IMG/VR virus record: IMGVR_UViG_3300049893_000311
Coordinates: 1-62,278 of that record
Direction: 5' to 3' (one strand)
Origin: a virus
Lineage: Duplodnaviria > Caudoviricetes
DNA: 62,278 nt
How positions within the stretch are numbered: position 1 is the first letter of the stretch; the number at the start of each line of letters is the position of its first letter. The notes below the pieces were generated by a model that saw only the letters and a list, made by a program, of their open reading frames with translations, ran no database searches and had not been told where the DNA came from. Both the position numbers and the translations under genes were made by a program. Below are positions 79-14,651 of this stretch, piece by piece.

Positions 79-152
79 TGGCACACCACCCAGGTACTGC
101 CCCCGGTTTTGCGGGTTTGGAAGCCGCCGTGTCACTTTAACACTTGTGGTGC
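79..152 (-). tRNA. tRNA-Trp(CCA), non-canonical T-loop
   Basis: Acceptor GCACCAC/GTGGTGT-G-CCA; anticodon arm GCGGC-TTCCAAA-CCCGC (one mismatch); T-loop GGCAGTA. Confidence 0.8.
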
Positions 153-563: not shown

Positions 564-564
564 G

Positions 565-635
565 TACCCCCAGATCGTACCGACCGATCTTCTCTCGGGT
601 AAGAGCCGAGTGCATCACCTTAATGCTTTAGGGGC
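565..635 (-). tRNA. tRNA-Lys(CTT), variant T-loop
   Basis: Anticodon arm CTCGG-CTCTTAC-CCGAG; T-arm GATCG-GTCGGTA-CGATC. Confidence 0.85.
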
Positions 636-1104: not shown

Positions 1105-1176
1105 TAGCCCCAGAGAGAATCGAACTCTCATCGCAAGGGTGAAAACCTTGTATCCTAACCACTAGACGATGGGGCC
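1105..1176 (-). tRNA. tRNA-Glu(TTC)
   Basis: CAAGG-TTTTCAC-CCTTG; canonical D and T arms. Confidence 0.95.
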
Positions 1177-1179
1177 ATG

Positions 1180-1236
1180 CTCACGTTTTCTTACTACTTA
1201 GCCGAGACACAGAAACCGTGAAAAACACTTTCTCGG
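1180..1236 (-). other. Probable pseudoknot upstream of tRNA-Glu
   Basis: Stem CCGAGA/TCTCGG; loop TTCACG pairs downstream CGTGAG. Confidence 0.45.
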
Positions 1237-4710: not shown

Positions 4711-4785
4711 TGGGGTGTCTAGAGGGTACTGCCCCCTCTTCTCTACTGTCACAGAGTAGCACATCACTTTAATGCTTTAGACACC
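4711..4785 (-). tRNA. tRNA-His(GTG), non-canonical T-loop
   Basis: G-1:C73, encoded CCA; CTACT-CTGTGAC-AGTAG; T-loop GGCAGTA. Confidence 0.9.
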
Positions 4786-4946: not shown

Positions 4947-5711
4947 TTAGTAACTCTCGTATGCTACATCATAGCACTTTGAGTCAATCCTGTCAAGTAG
5001 TTCCTGAGCAGGACTTGTTTCTAACCCATCAAGTACCATACTACCATTCCAATCGCGTACTGTCAAGTCGGGTTCATTGAATGGGGTCAGATAGGTGGCA
5101 TCAGTCGGCTCACCGCCCCATTTCTTACGGAAGTAGCCCCTGTGGGCTTCGAACCTCTCAGTAGTCACGTTGGGATTATACTTATCAAACTTTTGGGTCA
5201 TAGATCCCTCATGAATAACATCAATGTCTGTTCTGACGTATCCCTTAACACCGGCAAGGATCATCCTTCGGTGCATATCATTGTCCTCAAAGTAAGCGGG
5301 GTAGAAGTTCTGATCGAACCACCCGGCCTGCTCTGTGACCTGTGGAATATCGATAAAGAAACAGAAAAAGTCTGCACCTTCACGGAGCCCCTCATTCTCA
5401 AACATGTGCTGACGTAGTGGTAGCCTTACCTGATTAGGAGACACGACTCCGGCACCAGTCTCGACAATTGTCTTGTAGAGTTCCTCGATTGCGCCGGGTG
5501 GATACTTAAGATCATCATTAGAAATAAGTGCCCATCTATAACCCAAGTCCCTGGCCCTTCTCATGCCCTCGTTCCAGGCTCCCGACACGCCGCGATTATT
5601 GCGCCATGCATCTATAACGATTGGCCTAATGGCTGTGTCAACAGTTTCAATTGTTTCGGTAAACATATCAAACCGGTTAAGACAGGGGATGATGAATGGA
5701 ATACCGATCAT
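4947..5711 (-). CDS. Glycosyltransferase family 2
   Basis: N.GVSGAWN.G, SNDD (DxD-like), FD.NFYPAYFEDND; ATGA overlap at 5711. Confidence 0.85.
   Translation of the reverse strand: MIGIPFIIPCLNRFDMFTETIETVDTAIRPIVIDAWRNNRGVSGAWNEGMRRARDLGYRWALISNDDLKYPPGAIEELYKTIVETGAGVVSPNQVRLPLRQHMFENEGLREGADFFCFFIDIPQVTEQAGWFDQNFYPAYFEDNDMHRRMILAGVKGYVRTDIDVIHEGSMTQKFDKYNPNVTTERFEAHRGYFRKKWGGEPTDATYLTPFNEPDLTVRDWNGSMVLDGLETSPAQELLDRIDSKCYDVAYESY
4968..5066 (-). promoter_or_regulatory. Tandem promoters (TTGACA-17-TAGTAT 5038-5066; TTGACA-17-TATGAT 4968-4996) for tRNA block
   Basis: Two consensus matches within the 3' end of the glycosyltransferase gene. Confidence 0.7.
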
Positions 5712-6718
5712 ATTGTCAACCACTCCGGGTGGTCTAGTGTCCACTCGACAGTCCTCTGCAGAGATTCCTCTAGGGGCAGTGGGGCTTTCCAGCCTGTTGC
5801 CTCGATGTTATCACAATTAAGTGCATATCTTAGATCGTGTCCTGGCCTAGAACTGTGGAAGTCTACAATCTCATAGTGTAGAGGATTGCCAATGAACTCT
5901 GCAATAAGTGTTGCTAGTTCCAGGTTGTCTACCTCTCGCTCACCGGCGATGTGCAGGCGTAGTGGAGTCTCAGCCTCGCCGTACTTCGGGAATGGCAGGG
6001 AGGCGACGTGCATTAGCCCGTCAGCCTGGTTCCTGGCGTGTAGGTAAAAGCGTGAACCGATACGCCCATCTAGCGAGCCGTGAATCTGTACCAATTCCTC
6101 ATTCAAGATACGCTTAATCACCATAGGAACAAACTTCTCGGGATCCTGCGTCTCACCAATAATGTTCATGGTGTTAGTGATAGCCAGCGGAAGTCCGTAG
6201 GTTCTCCAATAAGAAAACGCAATATCTTCCTGTGCAGCCTTGGAAGCGGAGTACGGATTGCTCGGTAGGTGTTGGTCCTGCCACTCACGGTGGGCGTACC
6301 CATCAGGGGCTGGCCCATAAACCTCATCAGTAGAAATTTGAATGAACTTCTCAATATCAGAGTTACGAGCCCAATCCAAAATGTGTACCATCAAGGATAC
6401 GTTATTGATAATGAACGGTGCCGGTTCCTCGATGCTTCTGTCAACGTGTGACTCACTGGCAACGTTGAACACATAATCGATCTTGCCGAACTCTCTGGCC
6501 GTCAGCGTAGAGATAGGCGAGGTGAAGTCACACCTGATAACCTTGGTGCGGGCATAATCTTCATCAACCTCACGAACGGCGTGACGAATTCTATCCTGCA
6601 GCCCCTTGTGAGTGAAGGTGGTTGGGCATACAATGTCCCAATCAGTATTAACTAGAAAGTGGCGAAGCACATGGCTGCCAACAAAACCGGAAGCACCGGT
6701 CAGCAAAACCCTTTTCAT
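5708..6718 (-). CDS. rmlB: dTDP-glucose 4,6-dehydratase
   Basis: GASGFVG, ASESHVDRSI, STDEVYG, YSASK, RPGHDLRY. Confidence 0.9.
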   Translation of the reverse strand: MKRVLLTGASGFVGSHVLRHFLVNTDWDIVCPTTFTHKGLQDRIRHAVREVDEDYARTKVIRCDFTSPISTLTAREFGKIDYVFNVASESHVDRSIEEPAPFIINNVSLMVHILDWARNSDIEKFIQISTDEVYGPAPDGYAHREWQDQHLPSNPYSASKAAQEDIAFSYWRTYGLPLAITNTMNIIGETQDPEKFVPMVIKRILNEELVQIHGSLDGRIGSRFYLHARNQADGLMHVASLPFPKYGEAETPLRLHIAGEREVDNLELATLIAEFIGNPLHYEIVDFHSSRPGHDLRYALNCDNIEATGWKAPLPLEESLQRTVEWTLDHPEWLTI

Positions 6719-6733
6719 CTGTCTCCTGTCGTC

Positions 6734-7429
6734 CTATCCATTATACCCTATCGGAACAATTGGGGCAACAGCATTTTGCTGACCTAGTTCTATGGTATCC
6801 TGGTGCAGTCCGCTGAATGGGACCGAATATCTATCTGCTATATCACTAATCTTATATCCACTAGCAGTCATATTATCGAGAAAGTGTACCTGATTCCACT
6901 CTACCCCCGAGTAGTTGTGCGCCGGGGCGATAAGCAGTGGAGAACCATGATGCTTAACCATCAACCTTGCTGCCTCGCCACTCAGAAGCCCTACGCTATG
7001 TGCAGCGTGAGGCTGTCCATGAGTATCCAGAATCTTCGGACATACATATGCTACCCCATCAGTCATCCTTTCATAAAATATGTCTATAAAATTATCTACT
7101 GCGGGAACATAATCATCTTCCATCAGAAAATAATCCGTTTCATTACCGGCCCTGACGCTGGCATCTATAGCACTATTCCATCCTCCGTAAGAGAAATCTT
7201 GATTATTTCTTATAATAACAGATAGGTCAGTATAGTATGGTTTATAAGGCTGAACCTCTCTGGCAAAATTTACTATATCATCCTTAGAGTCTGCGTTTAA
7301 GACTAGAACTACCCTGTCTAAGGGAGCGTTTGCGTTACTCAGAAAATCTAGATGATCTCTGACGTGGCACGCAGGTCCAGCGGAGCGTCTCTCCCCCATA
7401 TAGAAAACACTTATATAGGTAACGCTCAA
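6734..7429 (-). CDS. Putative GT-A fold glycosyltransferase
   Basis: R.N...SYGGW and FLMEDDY motifs; context. Confidence 0.5.
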   Translation of the reverse strand: MSVTYISVFYMGERRSAGPACHVRDHLDFLSNANAPLDRVVLVLNADSKDDIVNFAREVQPYKPYYTDLSVIIRNNQDFSYGGWNSAIDASVRAGNETDYFLMEDDYVPAVDNFIDIFYERMTDGVAYVCPKILDTHGQPHAAHSVGLLSGEAARLMVKHHGSPLLIAPAHNYSGVEWNQVHFLDNMTASGYKISDIADRYSVPFSGLHQDTIELGQQNAVAPIVPIGYNG

Positions 7430-8502
7430 CGATATCTCCGAATGCTCTCAATGATAAAATCTGTATCATCATTAGTTAGCCACCAACCACATGGAACATT
7501 TGTTTGGTGTGTAGAGAAGTAGTCCAGTCCTGGCAAGGTTCTAGTATCAAACTCTTTCGTGACACTGTACTTATCATTTCTAGTGTGTACCTGTGCTGCC
7601 TGGATTCCATTGGCATTAAGGTATCTCTCAAAGTCGTCACGATCTATACCGTTATTCACCACAAGTGGGAAGATCCAGTATGAGGTGTCCTCGTAGTAGG
7701 GCGGTACGAACAGCCAATCCAAATCCTTTAAGGCTTCGTACATATGCTTGGCGTTGTTCCTGTGAACGTGAACTCCCATTGCTGCAGATCGCATATTAGC
7801 CAATGCGATAGTTGCGCTGATATCATTCATATTGTACTTATAGCCGATGGTGTTGATATCCTGCATCGACCGGAAACTTTCATTATTATCTCTGTCTAGA
7901 CCATACCAGCGCTTCATACGGGCAAGCCTGTGAGTTTCTTCCGGAGTTACCAGGAGTCCGCCGTCGCCTGCCGTCAGGAACTTAATAGCCTGTAGGCTAT
8001 AAGCAATATAGTCTCCACGAGGCATGTTGTGATCGTATGTGTCCCAGGTGTGGGCGGCATCCTCAATTACTGTGGGTGCTAGCAGTTTGAGAGCATCATA
8101 CTCAGCGAACTGACCAGCCCAATTTACTCCGACAATCGCCTTAGTCTTATCAGTGGCAATTCTTTCAACATCAAATACGCTAATGTTTCCGGTGAATGGG
8201 TAAACATCTGCCCACACAATCTTAGCGCCGCGTCGCATAAGCCCTGCGTTAGTAGCATAGCAGGTCATGGGGGTAGAGATAACCTCGTCACCTGGCTCGA
8301 TTCCGGCCAGGTCGAATGCTAGATCAAGTGCTGACGTAGCAGAGTTGACAGCAACAGGCTCACGAGGAAGATTAAGATACTGATGGGATACGGCCTCTAG
8401 TTCGTCCACCCTCGGGCCCTGCGTGACGAAGCCTGAGGAGAGTGTCTCTGCAACCTTCTCGTTGGCGACCGGTGACATATTTACTTTGAACAGTGGGATC
8501 AT
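7426..8502 (-). CDS. DegT/DnrJ/EryC1/StrS PLP-dependent sugar aminotransferase
   Basis: VNSATSAL, IEDAAH, SLQAIK.L..GDGG, GYKYNMND; leaderless start after TATAAT. Confidence 0.9.
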   Translation of the reverse strand: MIPLFKVNMSPVANEKVAETLSSGFVTQGPRVDELEAVSHQYLNLPREPVAVNSATSALDLAFDLAGIEPGDEVISTPMTCYATNAGLMRRGAKIVWADVYPFTGNISVFDVERIATDKTKAIVGVNWAGQFAEYDALKLLAPTVIEDAAHTWDTYDHNMPRGDYIAYSLQAIKFLTAGDGGLLVTPEETHRLARMKRWYGLDRDNNESFRSMQDINTIGYKYNMNDISATIALANMRSAAMGVHVHRNNAKHMYEALKDLDWLFVPPYYEDTSYWIFPLVVNNGIDRDDFERYLNANGIQAAQVHTRNDKYSVTKEFDTRTLPGLDYFSTHQTNVPCGWWLTNDDTDFIIESIRRYR

Positions 8503-8508
8503 AGTAAC

Positions 8509-8537
8509 ATTATACCAACTCTGTGTCGGTCGGTCCA
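8509..8537 (-). promoter_or_regulatory. Promoter TGGACC-17-TATAAT, leaderless
   Basis: ATG 6 nt after -10. Confidence 0.6.
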
Positions 8538-9238
8538 TCGTCAATTACAACGAAATGATTTGACCTCTGCCCCAATTGATCTGAAAAGACGCCCTTATAC
8601 TGCACAACCATTTCGTTGAATGGGCATGGACCGAAGGCTTCGAACATTTGTGAGTATACCTCAGCGTCTAATGCTGCTGTCTGAGGTGCCGGGAACTTTA
8701 TGCCAGCCTCTTTCCAGTCCTTGATTCGCCAGGATACCTGGCTTGCATCTACCCTGCAGTATGGATCAATTGGCCAAGTGTGGGCGTTTAGAAATGTTCC
8801 ATAGTCGAACGGCATATTATCTATTGACGGATATGTAGTGGGGTCATAGACGCTAACGTGCCCATAACTATACTTGACATCTTGATTGGCAGTGTAATAT
8901 CTGTCCAGACCATTTATATATCCGGGTACCAGGGCGTCGTCGTCACAAAGCATGATTCCTAAATCTGCGTCTGTGTCCTCTATCGCCTTGTTCCAGAAGG
9001 AACCAAATCTGCTCCCTCCCTGAGCCAACTTCTGCTCTACGGAATCGTTAGTGTTATAAAGAGTAACGTCGCCAATTGTCCAGACATATTGATCTATTAC
9101 ATCTCTGAGTGGCTTGGTGGAACCATCATCCACAATCGCCAGGTGGTAGTCTGCATCCCCCTGAGCACAGATAGAGTCTAGCGCCAGTTTGACCATTTCA
9201 GGTCGCTCATAGTATGCCATTAGAATAAGTGTCTTCAA
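8510..9238 (-). CDS. Glycosyltransferase family 2
   Basis: AYYERP, VDDGST, LCDDD motifs. Confidence 0.85.
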   Translation of the reverse strand: MKTLILMAYYERPEMVKLALDSICAQGDADYHLAIVDDGSTKPLRDVIDQYVWTIGDVTLYNTNDSVEQKLAQGGSRFGSFWNKAIEDTDADLGIMLCDDDALVPGYINGLDRYYTANQDVKYSYGHVSVYDPTTYPSIDNMPFDYGTFLNAHTWPIDPYCRVDASQVSWRIKDWKEAGIKFPAPQTAALDAEVYSQMFEAFGPCPFNEMVVQYKGVFSDQLGQRSNHFVVIDDGPTDTELV

Positions 9239-10077
9239 TGATTTATTCGCTCCAATATTTCTGGATTATGCCTATATCTTTCGAGAATGGCCGCTCTTGT
9301 TGGCTCCACCCACTCAAACAAAGACTCGTCCCGGCCTATTGGAATATCATGCGCCAAGGACCACTGAAAGTCTACATCTGGTCTTCTAGAGTCCTGACAC
9401 TCCACCCGATCAAGTACGCCTTTATTCATCTTGACCTCGAACTCCTCTTTAGAAAGAGTAATGTAGTGGTATAGTTTTAACTTGTTCATTGTATAATCGT
9501 CGGGAGAAAATGCTCCATATATTGCATTGTGGTTTTCTGTCACAGAAAAAAGACCTGGCTGGTACAGGAAGTTATGTGGGTGACCGGCGTGTTGGAGGGC
9601 TAGGTGCGGTTGGAAAATAGTCTTTATATGATACATGGGATCCTTAGCAGCATCGAAATAGTTCTCCATCAACAACCCCTCCGGACGATAGATGTGTCCA
9701 GAGGAGTTTATTAGTTGCCATGCTACACTAACTCCCCCATAGTTCTCGTATTCTGACAGCATCTCTGGCAGACTTTTCCCTGTCGGACTAATCAAGCGTT
9801 CATCAATAGCATGATAGTGTAGCCACCTGGTCTTGAATGCTTGCTCCTGAATGCAGTAATCCATCACCCAACTGTTCTTGCTTATGTTTAATCCATCAGG
9901 ATAAGTTCGTAACTCTACCAGGTCTCCGTATGGCTCTAAAATTTCCCTGGTCCCATCCGTGGAGCCATTGTCGTAGAAGATAAAATGGTCGAACCCCTGC
10001 ATGAGATGAAACTCTAGATATTCTGGAAGATATCTCCCTTCATTTTTTATCCAATAAATTCCAGTTAGGTTATACAT
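9235..10077 (-). CDS. Glycosyltransferase family 92-like
   Basis: KNE.RYL.E.LEFH...GFDHF.FYDNGSTD; IDE; HY.T.S.EEF..K. Confidence 0.8.
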   Translation of the reverse strand: MYNLTGIYWIKNEGRYLPEYLEFHLMQGFDHFIFYDNGSTDGTREILEPYGDLVELRTYPDGLNISKNSWVMDYCIQEQAFKTRWLHYHAIDERLISPTGKSLPEMLSEYENYGGVSVAWQLINSSGHIYRPEGLLMENYFDAAKDPMYHIKTIFQPHLALQHAGHPHNFLYQPGLFSVTENHNAIYGAFSPDDYTMNKLKLYHYITLSKEEFEVKMNKGVLDRVECQDSRRPDVDFQWSLAHDIPIGRDESLFEWVEPTRAAILERYRHNPEILERINH

Positions 10078-10513
10078 TTATATACTCCAATGGGTAGTCT
10101 GTACAGATTCCTAAGAGGTTGTCGGTCGGCTCCCACAATTCTGGTAATACAGAGATGCTGTTTTCCAGCGGTGGTGCCGATGGGTGGGTCCATACCACCC
10201 CGTTACTTACCAGGGTGTACGAATCTGTGATATGGAAAAAATACCTCAAATCCTTAAGGAACGAGTTAGAAACCTTTTCTAGCGCAGTGCCGTTCTTGCA
10301 GTGGATCCAAAGGTTGTCTCTGTAGTGGTGCAGCCATTCTGCAGACACCTCGTACTGCAACTCATCGTGTCCTAAATAGAAGCAGCCATTAACCCACCAC
10401 AGGTCTACCTCTACATCAAGCCCTAGGTGAATCACGCTCTGTATCTGCTTGGGTGAATTCTCGGAATTTGGGTCGGGCCCGTACAGGTTGCCCCGGTGAG
10501 AAATAATTACCAC
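10070..10513 (-). CDS. GDPD/PLC-like phosphodiesterase-fold protein
   Basis: ISHRGN, DVEVD, LGHD, WIHCKN, GICTDY. Confidence 0.75.
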   Translation of the reverse strand: MVIISHRGNLYGPDPNSENSPKQIQSVIHLGLDVEVDLWWVNGCFYLGHDELQYEVSAEWLHHYRDNLWIHCKNGTALEKVSNSFLKDLRYFFHITDSYTLVSNGVVWTHPSAPPLENSISVLPELWEPTDNLLGICTDYPLEYINV

Positions 10514-11880
10514 CGATCCTCCTTTAAAAATTCTTCCAGATCTTCTGGTGTGCCGAGACCATGCATATCATCAACATCGAACGTCTTAAACTTTAAACCG
10601 CCCTGTATTCCCTCATTAAATGCCGGACAGACATAAAACTCATTATTAGTTCTAATGTTTTTATCAATCATCTGCTTGGCAGAGGCAACGTAGTCGCTAC
10701 CGCGCTTCCAGTAATAAATACCGACAGTCGCATTATGCGAAATAGGATTTTTTTCGGCTACTCTTTCAACGTATCCATCCTCCCCAACCTTAGCGAACGA
10801 CCACTTGGGGTGAGTGGACTTGAATGTCACTATTCCCCCGTCTGTAGCCGACTCCTGCATAAAGTAGAAGAAGTCTGAGGGCGACCACTCTACATACTGG
10901 TCCGAGTTTGCCAGTAGAAGCGGGCTCTCGTTGTCTATAAACTCTGACGCTAACAGAGTGGTAACTGCTGCGCCCTCCGTCAGACCATCAGTTTCCACGA
11001 TTTTGACCTGACCAGGCGTGATAAGTTGTAGCATTGTGTCAAGATTGTACTTCTGCCGATGTTCTGATCTAACAATGTAAATAAATGTCGCGTCCTGTAT
11101 TCCAAGATTTTCAACAACCACCTGAATCATTGGTTTTCCCCTGACAGAAATCAGAGGCTTAGGAAAAGTATATCCGGCACTCTCAAATCTAGATCCGGCT
11201 CCGGCCATAGGAATAACTACGTTCAGGCTTGACTGTGACCATGAAGAATTCATTTTACCATTATACCCTCCGATTCTAGATTCCACAAACTCTTTTGTCA
11301 CCTCTAGCGGGTCGGAGATTCTTAATGTGTTTGCTCCGGAGAGCGTGGCAGCCCTTAGTCCGACCGGAGAGTCTTCTAGGATCAATGTTTCTTCTGGAAG
11401 AACCCCATAAAGAGACATAACCTTCCAGTACATTTCCGGGTGTGGCTTAGAATTTTTCACATCTTCGTTAGAGACAATGATATCAAAATATTCTTTTATA
11501 CCCAATCTCTCTAGCACGAGGGCCGTAGTGGATCTGATGGAGTTGGAGCAACAGGCAATCTTGACCCCTCTTGCTGTCAACGACCTCATAAGATCTACGA
11601 GAATGTGATTTACGCCAACAGACCTATTTATCACCTCGGCTGTAAACTCCTGCTTTCTTTTCCAGATAGAATCATGGGCTCCTCGTGGGAGTCCACGCTT
11701 TTCTGACAGCATGTTTAACTTCTCGGTAGTCTTTAATCCGTCAAAGACGGACAGGTGCTCTTTCTCGGAGATAACATACTGTGCCCCCTGCTCTTTAAGG
11801 GCTTCGTTCAGGGCGTGAAAATGAATATCTTTAGTAGATACAAGAACTCCATCAAGGTCGAACGCTATAAGTTTTATCAT
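10507..11880 (-). CDS. HAD hydrolase / sugar nucleotidyltransferase fusion
   Basis: N-term FDLDG...SNS...KP.P...EDS; C-term PMAGAGSRF..AGY..PKPL, NSDQ, GLGTPEDL. Confidence 0.9.
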   Translation of the reverse strand: MIKLIAFDLDGVLVSTKDIHFHALNEALKEQGAQYVISEKEHLSVFDGLKTTEKLNMLSEKRGLPRGAHDSIWKRKQEFTAEVINRSVGVNHILVDLMRSLTARGVKIACCSNSIRSTTALVLERLGIKEYFDIIVSNEDVKNSKPHPEMYWKVMSLYGVLPEETLILEDSPVGLRAATLSGANTLRISDPLEVTKEFVESRIGGYNGKMNSSWSQSSLNVVIPMAGAGSRFESAGYTFPKPLISVRGKPMIQVVVENLGIQDATFIYIVRSEHRQKYNLDTMLQLITPGQVKIVETDGLTEGAAVTTLLASEFIDNESPLLLANSDQYVEWSPSDFFYFMQESATDGGIVTFKSTHPKWSFAKVGEDGYVERVAEKNPISHNATVGIYYWKRGSDYVASAKQMIDKNIRTNNEFYVCPAFNEGIQGGLKFKTFDVDDMHGLGTPEDLEEFLKEDRW

Positions 11881-11890
11881 CTATACAACC

Positions 11891-12343
11891 TTATACCGTA
11901 CGCCTAACCATAGAGACTACGCCATTATGCTCAGCAGTCTCGACAAATCCGAGTGATCGATAGAGATTGATTGCCTTATTATTAGTAGAAAGAACGTCCA
12001 ATTCTGGTACGAACTGGTCATCATTAGTCAGATCAATTAGAGTCTGGAACAGTTTTTTCCCATGACCCTGCCCCTGATACTCTTCCAGAATTGCGCCGGT
12101 TAAGAGAGCAGCCGAAGCATCCTGCCTGTTAATAATACCATAGCCAATCGCCTTGCCTTGACTAAAATAAAGAAACAGTCTCAACCTTTCATGGTCGAGA
12201 CTGCTATACCACTCTATCTGCTCACTCTCTGTAATCATTTTGGTGTTATTAGTCATAAATTGACGAACACTATTACGAATCAGGCGGGCCGCTTCAAGTT
12301 CTCGCTCTAGGTTTGGCCTATCAGGAGTAATTTCTACCAGCAT
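11891..12343 (-). CDS. GNAT N-acetyltransferase (PseH-like)
   Basis: RN..RQFM...I...EQ..W; QGQGHG; N.KAINLY.SLGF. Confidence 0.85.
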   Translation of the reverse strand: MLVEITPDRPNLERELEAARLIRNSVRQFMTNNTKMITESEQIEWYSSLDHERLRLFLYFSQGKAIGYGIINRQDASAALLTGAILEEYQGQGHGKKLFQTLIDLTNDDQFVPELDVLSTNNKAINLYRSLGFVETAEHNGVVSMVRRTV

Positions 12344-12705: not shown

Positions 12706-12776
12706 ACGAGGTGTTCTTTTTTGAACTACCGGAGTCTCGACTTCCAGGCAATGAATTTCACATTGCGTTTCCTCGT
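12706..12776 (-). ncRNA. Circularly permuted tRNA-like module (YrlA-type topology)
   Basis: ACGAGG-AAAC-[GCAATG-TGAAATT-CATTGC]-[CTGGA..TCCGG]-TA-[GTTC-AAAAAA-GAAC]-A-CCTCGT. Confidence 0.65.
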
Positions 12777-12849
12777 GGCTTCGGGTCAGAGGGTCGAACT
12801 CCGATTCGTAGATTCAAAGTCTACTGTCCTGCCATTAGACGAACCCGAA
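12776..12849 (-). tRNA. tRNA-Gln(TTG)
   Basis: TTCGGGT/ACCCGAA-G-CCA; GTAGA-CTTTGAA-TCTAC. Confidence 0.95.
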
Positions 12850-13301: not shown

Positions 13302-13311
13302 GTTCGAGGGG

Positions 13312-13385
13312 CTCGGCGGGGAAGGATCGAACTTCCGACTTCAAGATTCAGAGTCTTGCTGCATATGCCAACAATGCGCCGCCGA
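13312..13385 (-). tRNA. tRNA-Gln(CTG)
   Basis: TCGGCGG/CCGCCGA-G; CAAGA-CTCTGAA-TCTTG. Confidence 0.9.
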
Positions 13386-13397
13386 ATAACTATTATT

Positions 13398-13429: not shown

Positions 13430-13504
13430 TGGTGCATCCGGACGGTGCTGCCCCGCCGACATTCGCGTTTAGAGTGCGACGTTCTACTGTTGAACTACGG
13501 ATGC
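13430..13504 (-). tRNA. Amber-anticodon tRNA(CTA) #1, full cloverleaf
   Basis: GCATCCG/CGGATGC-A-CCA; TCGCA-CTCTAAA-CGCGA; T-loop GGCAGCA. Confidence 0.85.
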
Positions 13505-13505
13505 T

Positions 13506-13657
13506 TGGTGGGCATATGCGTTACTAGCGCAACCTAGCAGATCAAGGAAACGGACTACCTATAGGATATCCTTCCGCAGCCTGGGCCTTGGATATAGGCG
13601 TTTATCGTGTGCTGTCACTACTAGAGGAAGGCGTTACTAGCAATACCTTCGCTGCCC
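13506..13657 (-). ncRNA. 152-nt ACCA-ended RNA with two CU-AGU-AA loops
   Basis: GGGCA/TGCCC-ACCA; GAAGGT..G-CTAGTAA-C-GCCTTC; CTAGTAG/CTGCTAG; TGCG-CTAGTAA-CGCA; fills the space between two tRNAs. Confidence 0.75.
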
Positions 13658-13658
13658 G

Positions 13659-13725
13659 AGCCCCGGAGGGGAATTGAACCCCAAGTCTGGCTTTTAGAGA
13701 GCCGTCTTGCGCCTGCGTCCGAGGC
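13659..13725 (-). tRNA. Amber-anticodon tRNA(CTA) #2, 67 nt with reduced D-arm
   Basis: GCCTCGG/CCGGGGC-T; GGCT-CTCTAAA-AGCC; GGGG-TTCAATT-CCCC. Confidence 0.7.
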
Positions 13726-13728
13726 AGA

Positions 13729-13756
13729 TGAGCAGTTTTAGTCATGCTCAGGACTA
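13729..13756 (-). other. Compact H-type pseudoknot upstream of tRNA(CTA) #2
   Basis: TAGTC/GACTA stem; loop TGAGCA pairs TGCTCA. Confidence 0.65.
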
Positions 13757-13790
13757 GGGATAAAAGATTTTATCCTCCACCACTTAGTTG

Positions 13791-13820
13791 TTACTAAGTC
13801 TATGTCTAGGTCTATGTCAC
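13791..13820 (-). CDS. Minigene GTG-ACA-TAG-ACC-TAG-ACA-TAG-ACT-TAG-TAA (M-T-X-T-X-T-X-T-X if amber is read)
   Basis: SD AGGGGGTG 7 nt upstream; repeat varies only at the Thr wobble position; ends in TAA. Confidence 0.65.
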
Positions 13821-13861
13821 GACTCACCACCCCCTATAAGAGATTGGCGTTTCGCCTTAAC

Positions 13862-14416
13862 CTATGGGTCTAGAAAATCCCCATCTAGAACAGTTTTCAT
13901 TGCCGCCTCGCGTGGAATCATACCCAAGTAACACATCCAACAGTGCCACGGACCTGAGTGTGGACATTCCTTAGGACGCAACTGGTAGACTGCCGGAGCA
14001 GTTGCAGGCTGCGGTCCAGATCCACAGTCAGGACATTCCTCACCAATAAGCAGGATGCGTCCAGACATACAGGTATCGCAAACATCTAGACGCCCAGCAC
14101 GCTTTTCAGCGCGGCGCTTAAACGTGCTCTGACGGCGCTGTGGAAGCGTGCCGTCCTTGTAAGGAACCATATCACCCTTAAGTTGGTTACACTTGCGATG
14201 CATCAACTTTAGATTATCAAGATCCCACGTTCCGCCATTAGAAAGCGGATTCCAGTGGTCTAGGGTAACGGCCCACCTGTTGTTCTCATCTTCGTAATCG
14301 ATAGAAAAGTCTAGTGGCTCCCCACACTCCGGGTGCATACAAAAATCGCCGTCCCTCTCACGAAGGAATGCGATTCGCTCTTCTCTCGATGGAGCGCGAG
14401 TCTCCACGGTTATCAC
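13862..14416 (-). CDS. HNH endonuclease with C-terminal Cys/His clusters (start 14416 or 14407; in-frame ATG-ACT-TAG at 14440)
   Basis: RDG..C...CG, TLDH..PLS.GG...DNL...H..CN..K. Confidence 0.85.
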   Translation of the reverse strand: MITVETRAPSREERIAFLRERDGDFCMHPECGEPLDFSIDYEDENNRWAVTLDHWNPLSNGGTWDLDNLKLMHRKCNQLKGDMVPYKDGTLPQRRQSTFKRRAEKRAGRLDVCDTCMSGRILLIGEECPDCGSGPQPATAPAVYQLRPKECPHSGPWHCWMCYLGMIPREAAMKTVLDGDFLDP

Positions 14417-14444
14417 CTTTTCGCTAGTGTTCTAAGTCATGGGT

Positions 14445-14651
14445 CTATTGTAGCACATCACCGGTCAGTAGGTCAAGTTGGCCCACAATTGGGGCGTAGG
14501 CACAGTCATCGTCAACGTCTGGACGATTATAGTCACTGACCTCACCACAGTATTTACACGTCAAATAATCTACCTCGTCTGGATCTAAGTTGTCCAGATC
14601 GTCCAGGTCCATGCCTGGAAAGATCGCCCTATCGTGCCATGCGTGCTTCAC
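14445..14651 (-). CDS. Hypothetical acidic protein with CxxC
   Basis: GTGA overlap with upstream stop. Confidence 0.6.
   Translation of the reverse strand: MKHAWHDRAIFPGMDLDDLDNLDPDEVDYLTCKYCGEVSDYNRPDVDDDCAYAPIVGQLDLLTGDVLQ
14447..14476 (-). promoter_or_regulatory. Promoter TTGACC-18-TACAAT; ATG-ACT-TAG at predicted +1
   Basis: TGn extended -10; ATG 6 nt downstream like other leaderless genes here. Confidence 0.7.

What the first reader, a model, noticed from the sequence alone, without database searches (positions are those of the whole stretch)
13659..13725. Miniaturised 67-nt amber tRNA with collapsed D-arm
Seen: 7-bp acceptor, U discriminator, normal T-arm, loop CUCUAAA, but a D region of about a dozen nt with no GG-containing D-loop; CAAG/CUUG could extend the anticodon stem. 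Established: tRNA-Pyl has a short connector, small D-loop and the same anticodon loop but G73 and needs PylRS, which is not in this window. Inference: orthogonal adaptor, decoy, or substrate of a phage-encoded enzyme elsewhere in the genome.
Basis: partly seen in the sequence, partly recalled or inferred. Interest (0 to 1): 0.75.

Follow-up and report, generated by a model that had tools for sequence, protein, structure and literature searches.

The report
Conserved miniature amber-reading phage tRNA
A phage that otherwise uses the normal genetic code carries a conserved 67-base tRNA-shaped gene that should read the stop codon UAG, with one of the four tRNA arms shrunk to a tiny hairpin, a design otherwise known mainly from animal mitochondria.

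Summary
The 67-nt element at window 13659-13725 (- strand) is real. Standard ARAGORN and Rfam do not call it. ARAGORN's mitochondrial mode calls it a D-replacement-loop tRNA with anticodon CUA.

Two homologues (L001, L090) and a partial strain variant keep the fold through compensatory changes: 5 of 19 pairs changed on both sides, 98.2% of cells paired, 0 of 500 shuffles as good. The anticodon loop CUCUAAA, the D region and the T loop do not vary.

The best model has an 8-bp acceptor stem, a 4-bp T stem, and a 2-bp D stem with tetraloop AGGC.

It fails most defining tRNA-Pyl features. No synthetase, release factor or Pth gene is present.

The phage is an actinophage-like siphovirus that uses TAG as an ordinary stop. 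One metatranscriptome contig covers the gene.

Best reading: a working but structurally reduced amber-suppressor tRNA (about 0.55). Its amino acid and its purpose are unknown. It is a new structural variant of phage suppressor tRNAs.

The parts
13659..13725 (-). 67-nt miniaturised tRNA gene, anticodon CUA (tRNA position p = 13726 - coordinate)
   Evidence: Sequence; ARAGORN -mt 'D-loop' call; homologues and covariation; own covariance model R1 scores 93.9 bits
13718..13725 (-). Acceptor 5' strand, p1-8; p8 pairs with p59 in the favoured 8/4 model
   Evidence: Pairs 1-7 with 60-66 are invariant. Pair 8:59 is A-U / U.G / U-A in 3 of 3 sequences. RNAalifold predicts the same without my input
13709..13716 (-). 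Mini D hairpin: 2-bp stem (p10-11 with p16-17) and tetraloop AGGC
   Evidence: Minimum-free-energy fold and RNAalifold. Invariant in 3 of 3 sequences, so the pairing is untested by covariation
13705..13708 (-). Invariant linker AAGA (p18-21). With invariant G39 A40 it could form tandem G.A pairs that extend the anticodon helix (inference)
   Evidence: Invariant in the window, L001 and L090 and in the X5 variant
13688..13704 (-). Anticodon stem-loop, p22-38; loop CUCUAAA; anticodon CUA at 13695-13697
   Evidence: Pairs 24:36, 25:35 and 26:34 changed on both sides. Pair 23:37 is G-C to C-G in the X5 strain variant. The loop is identical in all four
13683..13687 (-). Variable region p39-43 (GA + 3 variable nt; p43 is always a pyrimidine)
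13668..13682 (-). T arm: 4-bp stem and canonical loop UUCAAUU
   Evidence: Pair 46:56 is G-C to A-U, compensatory; the loop is invariant
13659..13667 (-). Acceptor 3' strand (p59-66) and discriminator (p67: U in the window and L001, A in L090); no CCA encoded
13505..13658 (-). 154-nt spacer downstream of the mini tRNA. It is covered together with the tRNA by one metatranscriptome contig and is identical in the dominant strain
   Evidence: X8 record 24 covers 13510-13739; X2 record 4 covers 13505-14483. Its fold is not exceptional, z = -0.37
13433..13504 (-). Second amber tRNA (CUA, same loop CUCUAAA) with normal arm lengths but an odd elbow (D loop without GG, T loop GGCAGCA). It is strain-variable
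   Evidence: Rfam tRNA 47 bits; ARAGORN -mt. Absent from L001 and L090. The dominant strain's contigs break exactly at 13505
13862..14416 (-). HNH endonuclease gene just upstream. It is syntenic in all three loci and ends in TAG in all three
   Evidence: PHROG 9645 E = 3.6e-57; Pfam HNH
13309..13386 (-). tRNA-Gln(CUG), the next canonical tRNA downstream in all three loci; tRNA-Gln(UUG) follows at 12776-12849

Best explanation
It is a functional, phage-encoded tRNA that pairs with the stop codon UAG (an amber suppressor) and is built on a reduced scaffold. [quoted passage not shown] The D stem is cut to 2 bp plus a tetraloop.

The gene sits in the phage's tRNA array and is probably transcribed with it. 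CCA would be added after transcription, and a host synthetase that does not need a normal D arm or a sense anticodon would charge it.

Shown here: the gene, its conservation, the base-pair covariation, the invariant loops, and the absence of recoding in the window.

Inferred: processing, charging, EF-Tu and ribosome use, and the biological purpose. I take the purpose to be low-level or timed read-through of UAG in the infected cell, or insurance against nonsense codons, rather than a changed genetic code.
For: 1. Homologues at the same place in two other phage contigs (HNH gene, then mini tRNA, then tRNA-Gln CUG, then tRNA-Gln UUG): L001:5639-5705 and L090:1039-1105.
2. Covariation. Of 19 pairs, 5 changed on both sides; 98.2% of cells pair; 0 of 500 shuffles match; partners slid by 1-3 columns give 29-58% paired. 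RNAalifold finds the same structure unaided.
3. 15 of 67 positions differ between the window and L001. 12 of them lie in six pairs that stay paired or become paired. There are 0 changes in the D region (12 nt), the anticodon loop (7 nt) or the T loop (7 nt).
4. A fourth, partial variant in run X5 swaps pair 23:37 from G-C to C-G and keeps CUCUAAA.
5. Contigs of the dominant strain in two DNA runs show 0 differences across 13505-13885 but 20 in the adjacent HNH gene.
6. One metatranscriptome contig (X8, 238 nt, depth 6.2) covers 13510-13739. The rest of the 2.3 kb laid has no cover, apart from a 38-nt patch with 5 mismatches.
7. ARAGORN -mt made 0 CUA calls in 25 shuffled windows. In 80 related loci (725 kb) its only CUA call was the L001 homologue.
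8. 8/4 tRNAs are known to work in bacterial translation and occur in phages (PMC5389517, passages read).
Against: - No gene in the 62-kb record needs UAG read through. TAG codons with at least 60 open codons on both sides number 3, against 3 for TGA and 7 for TAA.
- TAG ends 5 of 41 long ORFs (12.2%), the same share as in 79 related loci without the tRNA (82 of 658, 12.5%). There is no sign of adaptation to strong suppression.
- The discriminator differs (U, U, A), which is odd for a fixed amino-acid identity.
- Pair 22:38 is unpaired in 2 of 4 variants.
- Outside mitochondria, a tRNA with so small a D arm has not been shown to work. The 2020 review PMC7609411 describes D-arm loss only for mitochondria (passages read).
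- Standard detectors reject it, and its single-sequence fold energy is ordinary.
- Only three full sequences and one partial one are known, all close relatives.
- The RNA evidence is one contig from one study, and contigs cannot show ends or rule out DNA carry-over.
Confidence: 0.55

Rival explanations
1. It is a tRNA-shaped RNA that is not used for decoding. It could be a decoy or sponge for a host enzyme that binds anticodon loops, such as an anticodon nuclease of a defence system or a modification enzyme. Or it could be a processing signal: RNase P/Z cleavage would free the RNA that follows. In L001 and L090 an ORF starts one base after the discriminator, so cleavage there would give a leaderless mRNA.
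For: - The structure and the anticodon loop are conserved, but no UAG-dependent gene is seen, TAG stops are not depleted and the discriminator varies.
- The array also holds other tRNAs with altered elbows, and relatives keep such a copy beside a canonical one: Jay2Jay has two tRNA-His genes side by side, and also RNA ligase and polynucleotide kinase genes. This fits an arms race over tRNAs.
- An ORF abuts the tRNA 3' end in L001 and L090.
Against: - The loop CUCUAAA does not copy the loop of any sense tRNA in this array. The nearest is tRNA-Gln CUCUGAA.
- In the window the abutting ORF is absent, yet the tRNA is kept unchanged.
- A pure processing signal would not need an invariant anticodon loop.
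- All features needed for translation are kept.
Confidence: 0.25
2. It is a tRNA-Pyl-like adaptor that is charged by a PylRS encoded by the host or by the missing part of the phage genome.
For: It has a compact core, a small D loop and, in the 8/4 model, one base between the acceptor and D stems. tRNA-Pyl features are as listed in PMC1851642 (passages read).
Against: It fails most of the listed features. It keeps GG and UUC. Its variable region is 5 nt, not 3. Its anticodon stem has 4-5 Watson-Crick pairs, not 6. Its D stem has 2 bp. Its discriminator is U or A, whereas G73 to U or A costs 30- to 100-fold in charging by D. hafniense PylRS (PMC1851642). No PylRS or any other synthetase is found among 74 ORFs.
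Confidence: 0.03
3. It is a decaying tRNA remnant, or a chance hit of a permissive detector.
For: Standard tools reject it. ARAGORN -mt gives about 8 false calls per shuffled window. The fold energy is ordinary.
Against: There are compensatory changes in 5 pairs plus one more in a strain variant; the loops are invariant; synteny holds in three contigs whose terminases are only 75% identical; and there are 0 polymorphisms where the neighbouring gene has 20.
Confidence: 0.04

Closest known systems
Phage-encoded suppressor tRNAs (tRNA-Sup CUA) of stop-codon-recoded phages such as crAss-like, Lak and others (Borges et al., bioRxiv 10.1101/2021.08.26.457843, passages read)
   Same: It is a phage gene inside a tRNA cluster with anticodon CUA and presumably relies on host charging. 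That paper also reports a suppressor tRNA in a standard-code relative of recoded phages, and expects some phage suppressors to have non-canonical structures that escape detection.
   Different: This phage shows no recoding at all in 62 kb. It is a ~48% GC actinophage-like siphovirus from freshwater and sediment samples, not a low-GC gut phage. The tRNA body is reduced: a 2-bp D stem, 8/4 geometry and 67 nt.
Allo-tRNAs and other 8/4 tRNAs (Mukai et al. 2017, PMC5389517, passages read)
   Same: The 12-bp acceptor/T helix is split 8/4 and the D arm has a tetraloop. Some allo-tRNAs carry nonsense anticodons. 8/4 tRNA-Ser and tRNA-His occur in phage tRNA clusters, the tRNA-His ones with A73 or U73. 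Amber variants work in E. coli.
   Different: Allo-tRNAs have a long variable arm and a long D stem. This tRNA has a 5-nt variable region and only a 2-bp D stem. The 8/4 split here rests on a single covarying pair in three sequences.
Mitochondrial tRNAs with reduced or missing D arms, such as mammalian mt tRNA-Ser(AGY) and tRNA-Ser(UCN) and nematode mt tRNA-Ser (review PMC7609411, passages read)
   Same: Loss of most of the D arm while the acceptor, anticodon and T arms are kept; a similar overall length; ARAGORN files it under the same 'D-replacement loop' type.
   Different: It is not organellar. It keeps a canonical T loop and a GG-bearing mini hairpin, so an elbow contact is still possible. 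No specialised EF-Tu or synthetase is known to accompany it.
tRNA-Pyl (features as listed in PMC1851642)
   Same: CUA anticodon and loop, a compact core and a small D loop.
   Different: See the membership test: five of seven features tested are not met.
tRNA-Sec (Rfam RF01852)
   Same: It is the only Rfam family to align at all (16.5 bits). Both have a long acceptor stem and a 4-nt D loop.
   Different: The score is far below the gathering score of 47. There is no long variable arm, no 6-bp D stem, and the anticodon is not UCA.

Membership tests
Canonical bacterial/phage tRNA (Rfam RF00005; ARAGORN standard model) | Score at or above the curated threshold of the general tRNA model | tested here: not met
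   No RF00005 match at gathering score or at E <= 10; only the tRNA-Sec model aligns, at 16.5 bits. ARAGORN standard mode, -ps, -ps80 and -i give no call
Canonical bacterial/phage tRNA | 7-nt anticodon loop with U33 and a purine at 37; T loop UUCRANN; G18G19-type GG | tested here: met
   CUCUAAA, UUCAAUU and AGGC are all invariant in 3 of 3 sequences
Canonical bacterial/phage tRNA | 3-4-bp D stem with a 7-11-nt loop | tested here: not met
   Only 2 possible pairs and a 4-nt loop; 14 nt lie between the acceptor and anticodon stems
Amber suppressor tRNA (functional class) | Anticodon CUA in a conserved, structurally constrained tRNA body | tested here: met
Amber suppressor tRNA (functional class) | Aminoacylated, and reads UAG on the ribosome | not testable with these tools
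   Needs charging and reporter assays
Amber suppressor tRNA (functional class) | Genes in the same genome that carry in-frame UAG | tested here: not met
   No excess of TAG flanked by open frame (3, against 3 for TGA and 7 for TAA). The one in-frame TAG junction (6734) is followed by its own AGGAGA and ATG. The record is incomplete
tRNA-Pyl | 6-bp anticodon stem | tested here: not met
   4 constant pairs plus 22:38, which pairs in 2 of 4 variants
tRNA-Pyl | 3-nt variable loop | tested here: not met
   5 nt (4 in the 7/5 model)
tRNA-Pyl | Single base between the acceptor and D stems | tested here: inconclusive
   One base in the 8/4 model, two in the 7/5 model
tRNA-Pyl | No G18G19 and no T54-Psi55-C56 | tested here: not met
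   GG and UUC are present and invariant
tRNA-Pyl | Discriminator G73 with G1:C72 | tested here: not met
   G1:C72 is present, but the discriminator is U, U, A
tRNA-Pyl | Small D loop of 5 bases on a normal 4-bp D stem | tested here: not met
   4-nt loop on a 2-bp stem
tRNA-Pyl | Cognate PylRS gene | tested here: not met
   No synthetase among 74 ORFs (Pfam) or 40 ORFs (PHROGs). The host and the rest of the genome are unknown
Allo-tRNA (8/4 or 9/3) | 12-bp acceptor/T helix split 8/4 | tested here: inconclusive
   Pair 8:59 pairs in 3 of 3 with a change on both sides. The rival pair 43:59 pairs in 2 of 3. Only three sequences
Allo-tRNA (8/4 or 9/3) | Long variable arm and long D stem with a tetraloop | tested here: not met
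   5-nt variable region; 2-bp D stem; the tetraloop is present
Mitochondrial-type D-arm-lacking tRNA | D arm replaced by a short unpaired loop | tested here: inconclusive
   ARAGORN -mt draws it so. Energy models put a 2-bp hairpin there. The positions are invariant, so covariation cannot decide

The most novel reading that the evidence does not exclude
This would be the first tRNA outside organelles with an almost absent D stem that is active in translation. A host synthetase would charge it through its acceptor stem alone, making it a naturally orthogonal UAG adaptor. The phage itself uses the standard code. It would deploy this tRNA, together with a second, strain-variable amber tRNA, to weaken UAG termination in the infected cell. 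Possible aims are timed read-through, or rescue of phage genes hit by nonsense changes such as CAG to UAG. The tRNA sits directly upstream of the two tRNA-Gln genes.
Probability: 0.3. Interest if true: 0.85.

Novelty: new variant of a known kind. Interest (0 to 1): 0.66.

Why it matters
If it decodes, it shows that bacterial ribosomes, EF-Tu and processing enzymes can accept a tRNA whose D arm is reduced to eight nucleotides. Such tolerance has been documented mainly for mitochondrial translation systems with co-evolved factors.

It would also add a compact natural scaffold for genetic-code expansion.

It extends phage amber suppressors to an actinophage-like lineage that shows no recoding. 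That bears on why phages acquire suppressors before, or without, changing their code.

It is also a practical warning. Standard tRNA finders missed this gene and four other odd tRNAs in the same array, so phage tRNA repertoires and suppressor counts are underestimated.

Tried and rejected
- **Similarity to cultured phages.** blastn (distant mode, E <= 10) of the element against 50,697 phage records found no match.
- **Pattern scans of IMG/VR.** Four scans found only the L001 contig, plus one chance hit (L082) that is not a tRNA.
- **Metagenome scan.** Of 11 stretches, 2 are true: L087, which is the same contig as L001, and L090. The other 9 (three sequence types) have no complementary ends on inspection.
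- **Prokaryote-genome scan for the same scaffold with any anticodon.** It gave 35 stretches, none foldable: at most 5 of 7 acceptor pairs, and never with intact anticodon and T stems.
- **Model R1.** It found no further member in the window, in 91 loci (759 kb), or in the 24-kb tRNA region of Streptomyces phage Jay2Jay. The best non-member scores were 26.7, 21.6 and 30.4 bits, the first and third at ordinary tRNAs (L072 was not checked).
- **Promoter and terminator scan.** It gave nothing convincing in front of the gene: one 9-of-12 match at 13794-13767, not clearly conserved, and no terminator. A -10-like TAAAAC box just upstream is CAAAAC in the RNA-run strain, so I dropped it.
- **TAG read-through fusion of ORF 6734-7429 with the epimerase.** The two are in frame, but the epimerase has its own ribosome-binding site and ATG, and about one adjacent gene pair in three is in frame by chance. 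ORF 6734-7429 has no solved relative.
- **The 154-nt spacer as a structured RNA.** z = -0.37.
- **CAAG/CUUG long anticodon helix.** Not conserved.
- **Earlier scan notes.** Look-ups by place and by sequence returned nothing.
- **Amino-acid identity.** It could not be resolved. The nearest body in the array is tRNA-Gly(UCC), which shares G1:C72, C2:G71, U73 and the T stem, but this is not evidence of glycine charging.
- **Literature.** Searches for a D-arm-reduced or non-canonical phage suppressor tRNA turned up no description. Supplements of the papers cited were not opened.

Full report
**What the window is.** The 62,278-base window is the whole assembly held for this record, one contig.
- Almost every gene lies on the - strand, and GC is about 48%.
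- PHROG and Pfam matches show a tailed phage. It has a large terminase, a 2,221-residue tape-measure protein, other tail proteins, a DnaE-type polymerase, primase, helicase, RecA-like recombinase, several HNH endonucleases and a nucleotide-sugar/glycosyltransferase block.
- The polymerase is 54-56% identical to those of Streptomyces phages of the BillNye/Jay2Jay group.
- Near-identical DNA occurs in freshwater and freshwater-sediment metagenome runs.
- The record is incomplete. A tRNA starts at base 2 and an ORF runs off the other end.
- The standard code fits. Stop-to-stop frames of the - strand cover the window, and TAG ends 5 of 40 main ORFs.

**The observation.** On the - strand, 13725 to 13659 reads as a tRNA:
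- a 7-bp acceptor stem;
- 14 nt where about 20 are usual;
- an anticodon stem;
- the loop CUCUAAA (anticodon CUA);
- a 5-nt variable region;
- GGGG/CCCC around the T loop UUCAAUU;
- discriminator U, and no CCA.

How the detectors treat it:
- Standard ARAGORN, also with lowered thresholds or introns allowed, does not call it.
- Rfam's tRNA model does not reach E = 10. Only tRNA-Sec aligns, at 16.5 bits against a gathering score of 47.
- ARAGORN in mitochondrial mode calls it a 'D-loop' tRNA with anticodon cta.
- That mode is permissive. It makes 7.96 calls per dinucleotide-shuffled window, though none with CUA in 25 shuffles. In the real window, 8 of its 26 calls lie inside ORFs.
- The fold energy of the single sequence is ordinary, z = -1.37.

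So the window alone does not prove the gene.

**Homologues.**
- The terminase retrieved 80 related IMG/VR loci. Only the closest (L001, 75% identity; the rest 62-66%) holds a match, at 5639-5705. This was also the only CUA call of ARAGORN -mt in those 725 kb.
- A pattern scan of metagenome contigs found the same contig again and one new one, L090:1039-1105.
- All three loci share the order HNH gene, mini tRNA, variable insert, tRNA-Gln(CUG), tRNA-Gln(UUG).
- The window and L001 differ at 15 of 67 positions. Twelve of these lie in six base pairs (8:59, 22:38, 24:36, 25:35, 26:34, 46:56), and each pair stays or becomes pairable.
- The 12-nt D region GCAGGCGCAAGA, the anticodon loop and the T loop do not change at all.

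**Structure.**
- On the three sequences, 98.2% of cells pair and 5 of 19 pairs have changes on both sides. No shuffle of 500 reaches this, and sliding the partners by 1-3 columns drops pairing to 29-58%.
- RNAalifold, given only the alignment, returns the same structure.
- Contigs laid from other runs add a fourth, partial variant (run X5). Pair 23:37, the one anticodon-stem pair that was constant, is C-G instead of G-C. Pair 22:38 is U.U. The variable region differs. The loop is again CUCUAAA (I read the positions off the printed loose end by hand).
- 8/4 against 7/5: position 59 can pair with position 8 (A-U, U.G, U-A; 3 of 3) or with position 43 (U.U, U.G, U-A; 2 of 3). An 8-bp acceptor stem with a 4-bp T stem therefore fits better than 7/5, but on three sequences only.
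- The D element is a 2-bp stem with tetraloop AGGC. It is invariant, so its pairing is not tested.
Its CAAG/CUUG extension is peculiar to the window's copy.
- The invariant G20 A21 and G39 A40 could form tandem G.A pairs under the anticodon stem. This is my inference.

**Population and expression.**
- In runs X2 and X3 the dominant strain's contigs (depth 1,603 and 25.8) cover 13505-14483 or beyond. They show no difference in 13505-13885 and 20 differences in the HNH gene.
- These contigs break exactly at 13505, and the window-like version with the second amber tRNA has depth 40 in X2. So the mini tRNA is the constant amber gene, and the neighbour at 13433-13504 comes and goes.
- A 238-nt contig from one metatranscriptome run (X8) covers 13510-13739 with 3 differences. 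The rest of the 2.3 kb laid has no cover, except a 38-nt patch with 5 mismatches.
- This is a weak hint of transcription. It comes from one study, contigs show no ends, and DNA carry-over is not excluded.

**What it is not.**
- tRNA-Pyl features are listed in PMC1851642 (passages read): a 6-bp anticodon stem, a 3-nt variable loop, one linker base, a 5-nt D loop on a normal stem, no GG or T-Psi-C, and G73 with G1:C72.
- This tRNA fails five of the seven features tested, and one more is inconclusive. The paper reports 30- to 100-fold losses for G73U and G73A.
- No synthetase, release factor or Pth domain occurs among 74 ORFs.
- It is not an allo-tRNA, because it has no long variable arm or long D stem. 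The 8/4 split is nevertheless shared with that group, and 8/4 tRNAs are reported in phage clusters (PMC5389517, passages read).
- It is not a relic or a chance hit, given the compensatory changes.

**What it most likely does.** Everything needed for processing and translation is retained:
- the 12-bp acceptor/T helix;
- the canonical T loop with G53:C61;
- a GG to dock on the T loop;
- U33 and A37-A38;
- an anticodon stem kept paired by selection.

I therefore read it as a working amber-reading tRNA on a reduced body (0.55).

Against a strong or essential suppressor:
- Nothing in 62 kb needs UAG read through. TAG flanked by open frame occurs 3 times, against 3 for TGA and 7 for TAA.
- The one in-frame TAG junction is followed by its own ribosome-binding site and ATG.
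- TAG stops are as frequent as in relatives that lack the tRNA: 5 of 41 against 82 of 658. Those relatives have a lower GC.
- The discriminator is U, U, A.

The amino acid is unknown. The closest body in the array is tRNA-Gly(UCC).

The main rival (0.25) is a non-decoding tRNA mimic, either a decoy for a host enzyme or a processing signal.
- In L001 and L090 an ORF begins one base after the discriminator.
- The array and its Streptomyces-phage relatives keep structurally altered tRNA copies beside canonical ones.

**Novelty.**
- Five literature searches found no description of a phage or bacterial tRNA with such a D arm.
- The 2020 review of non-canonical tRNAs treats D-arm loss only in mitochondria and never mentions phages (PMC7609411, passages read).
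- Borges et al. anticipate undetected non-canonical phage suppressors and note a suppressor in a standard-code relative of recoded phages (bioRxiv 10.1101/2021.08.26.457843, passages read).
- Two earlier notes of this scan describe comparable cases elsewhere: a 66-nt D-armless amber tRNA in a lake megaphage, and an 8/4 CUA tRNA-like gene without a D stem. I did not test them and do not count them as support.
- I rate this as a new structural variant of a known kind, phage suppressor tRNAs. Only three full sequences and one partial sequence are known so far.

Noticed in passing
window 13433-13504 (-): A second amber tRNA (CUA, same loop CUCUAAA) with normal arm lengths. Its D loop lacks GG and its T loop is GGCAGCA. 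Rfam tRNA scores it 47 bits, but standard ARAGORN misses it. It is absent from L001 and L090 and from the dominant strain in runs X2 and X3, whose contigs break exactly at 13505.
   Followed up: partly
window 79-152 (-), 564-635 (-), 4711-4784 (-): Three further tRNAs (Trp CCA, Lys CUU, His GUG) sit in gaps of the array and are missed by standard ARAGORN and by Rfam even at E <= 5. They share an altered elbow: D loop UUAAAGUGA-like without GG, and T loop GGCAGUA or GUCGGUA. The His gene matches 26 phage records at 80-84% identity, 25 of them Streptomyces phages. It is annotated as tRNA-His in only 2 of the 15 listed, and in Jay2Jay it lies next to a canonical tRNA-His.
   Followed up: partly
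window 13796-13830 (-); L001 about 5545-5580; L090 about 1165-1200 (-): A conserved ~35-nt block (GGAGGTGGTGAGTCGTGACATAGACCTAGACATAGA-like) lies 75-105 nt upstream of the mini tRNA in all three loci and is unique in the window. In L090 it forms the end of an extra 84-residue Cys-rich ORF. Its role (promoter, ORF remnant or endonuclease site) is unknown.
   Followed up: partly
L001 5707-6090 (+); L090 654-1037 (-): A ~127-residue ORF (MEPINDIND...) starts one base after the tRNA discriminator, so tRNA 3' processing would leave a leaderless mRNA. The L090 copy has an in-frame TGA where L001 has AGA. The window has a 154-nt spacer plus the second amber tRNA in its place.
   Followed up: no
window 6734-7429 (-) and 5708-6718 (-): A 231-residue ORF of no known family ends in TAG and is in frame with the following NAD-dependent epimerase, with 5 codons between them. 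The epimerase has its own AGGAGA and ATG, so this is probably coincidence.
   Followed up: partly
window 13862-14416 (-) and its homologues in L001 and L090: The HNH endonuclease gene upstream of the mini tRNA ends in TAG in all three loci. Between strains it carries 20 substitutions, while the adjacent 380 bases carry none.
   Followed up: no
window 4947-12343 (-): A block of nucleotide-sugar and glycosylation genes is wedged between two parts of the tRNA array. It holds glycosyltransferases, an epimerase, a DegT-type aminotransferase, a HAD-nucleotidyltransferase fusion and a GNAT acetyltransferase.
   Followed up: no
L095 (Streptomyces phage Jay2Jay, 83453-107529): The relatives' tRNA region has many duplicated isoacceptors (His x2, Tyr x2, Met x2, Lys x3), a tmRNA, and Ro-like protein, RNA ligase and polynucleotide kinase genes. 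This looks like a tRNA repair and replacement tool-kit.
   Followed up: no
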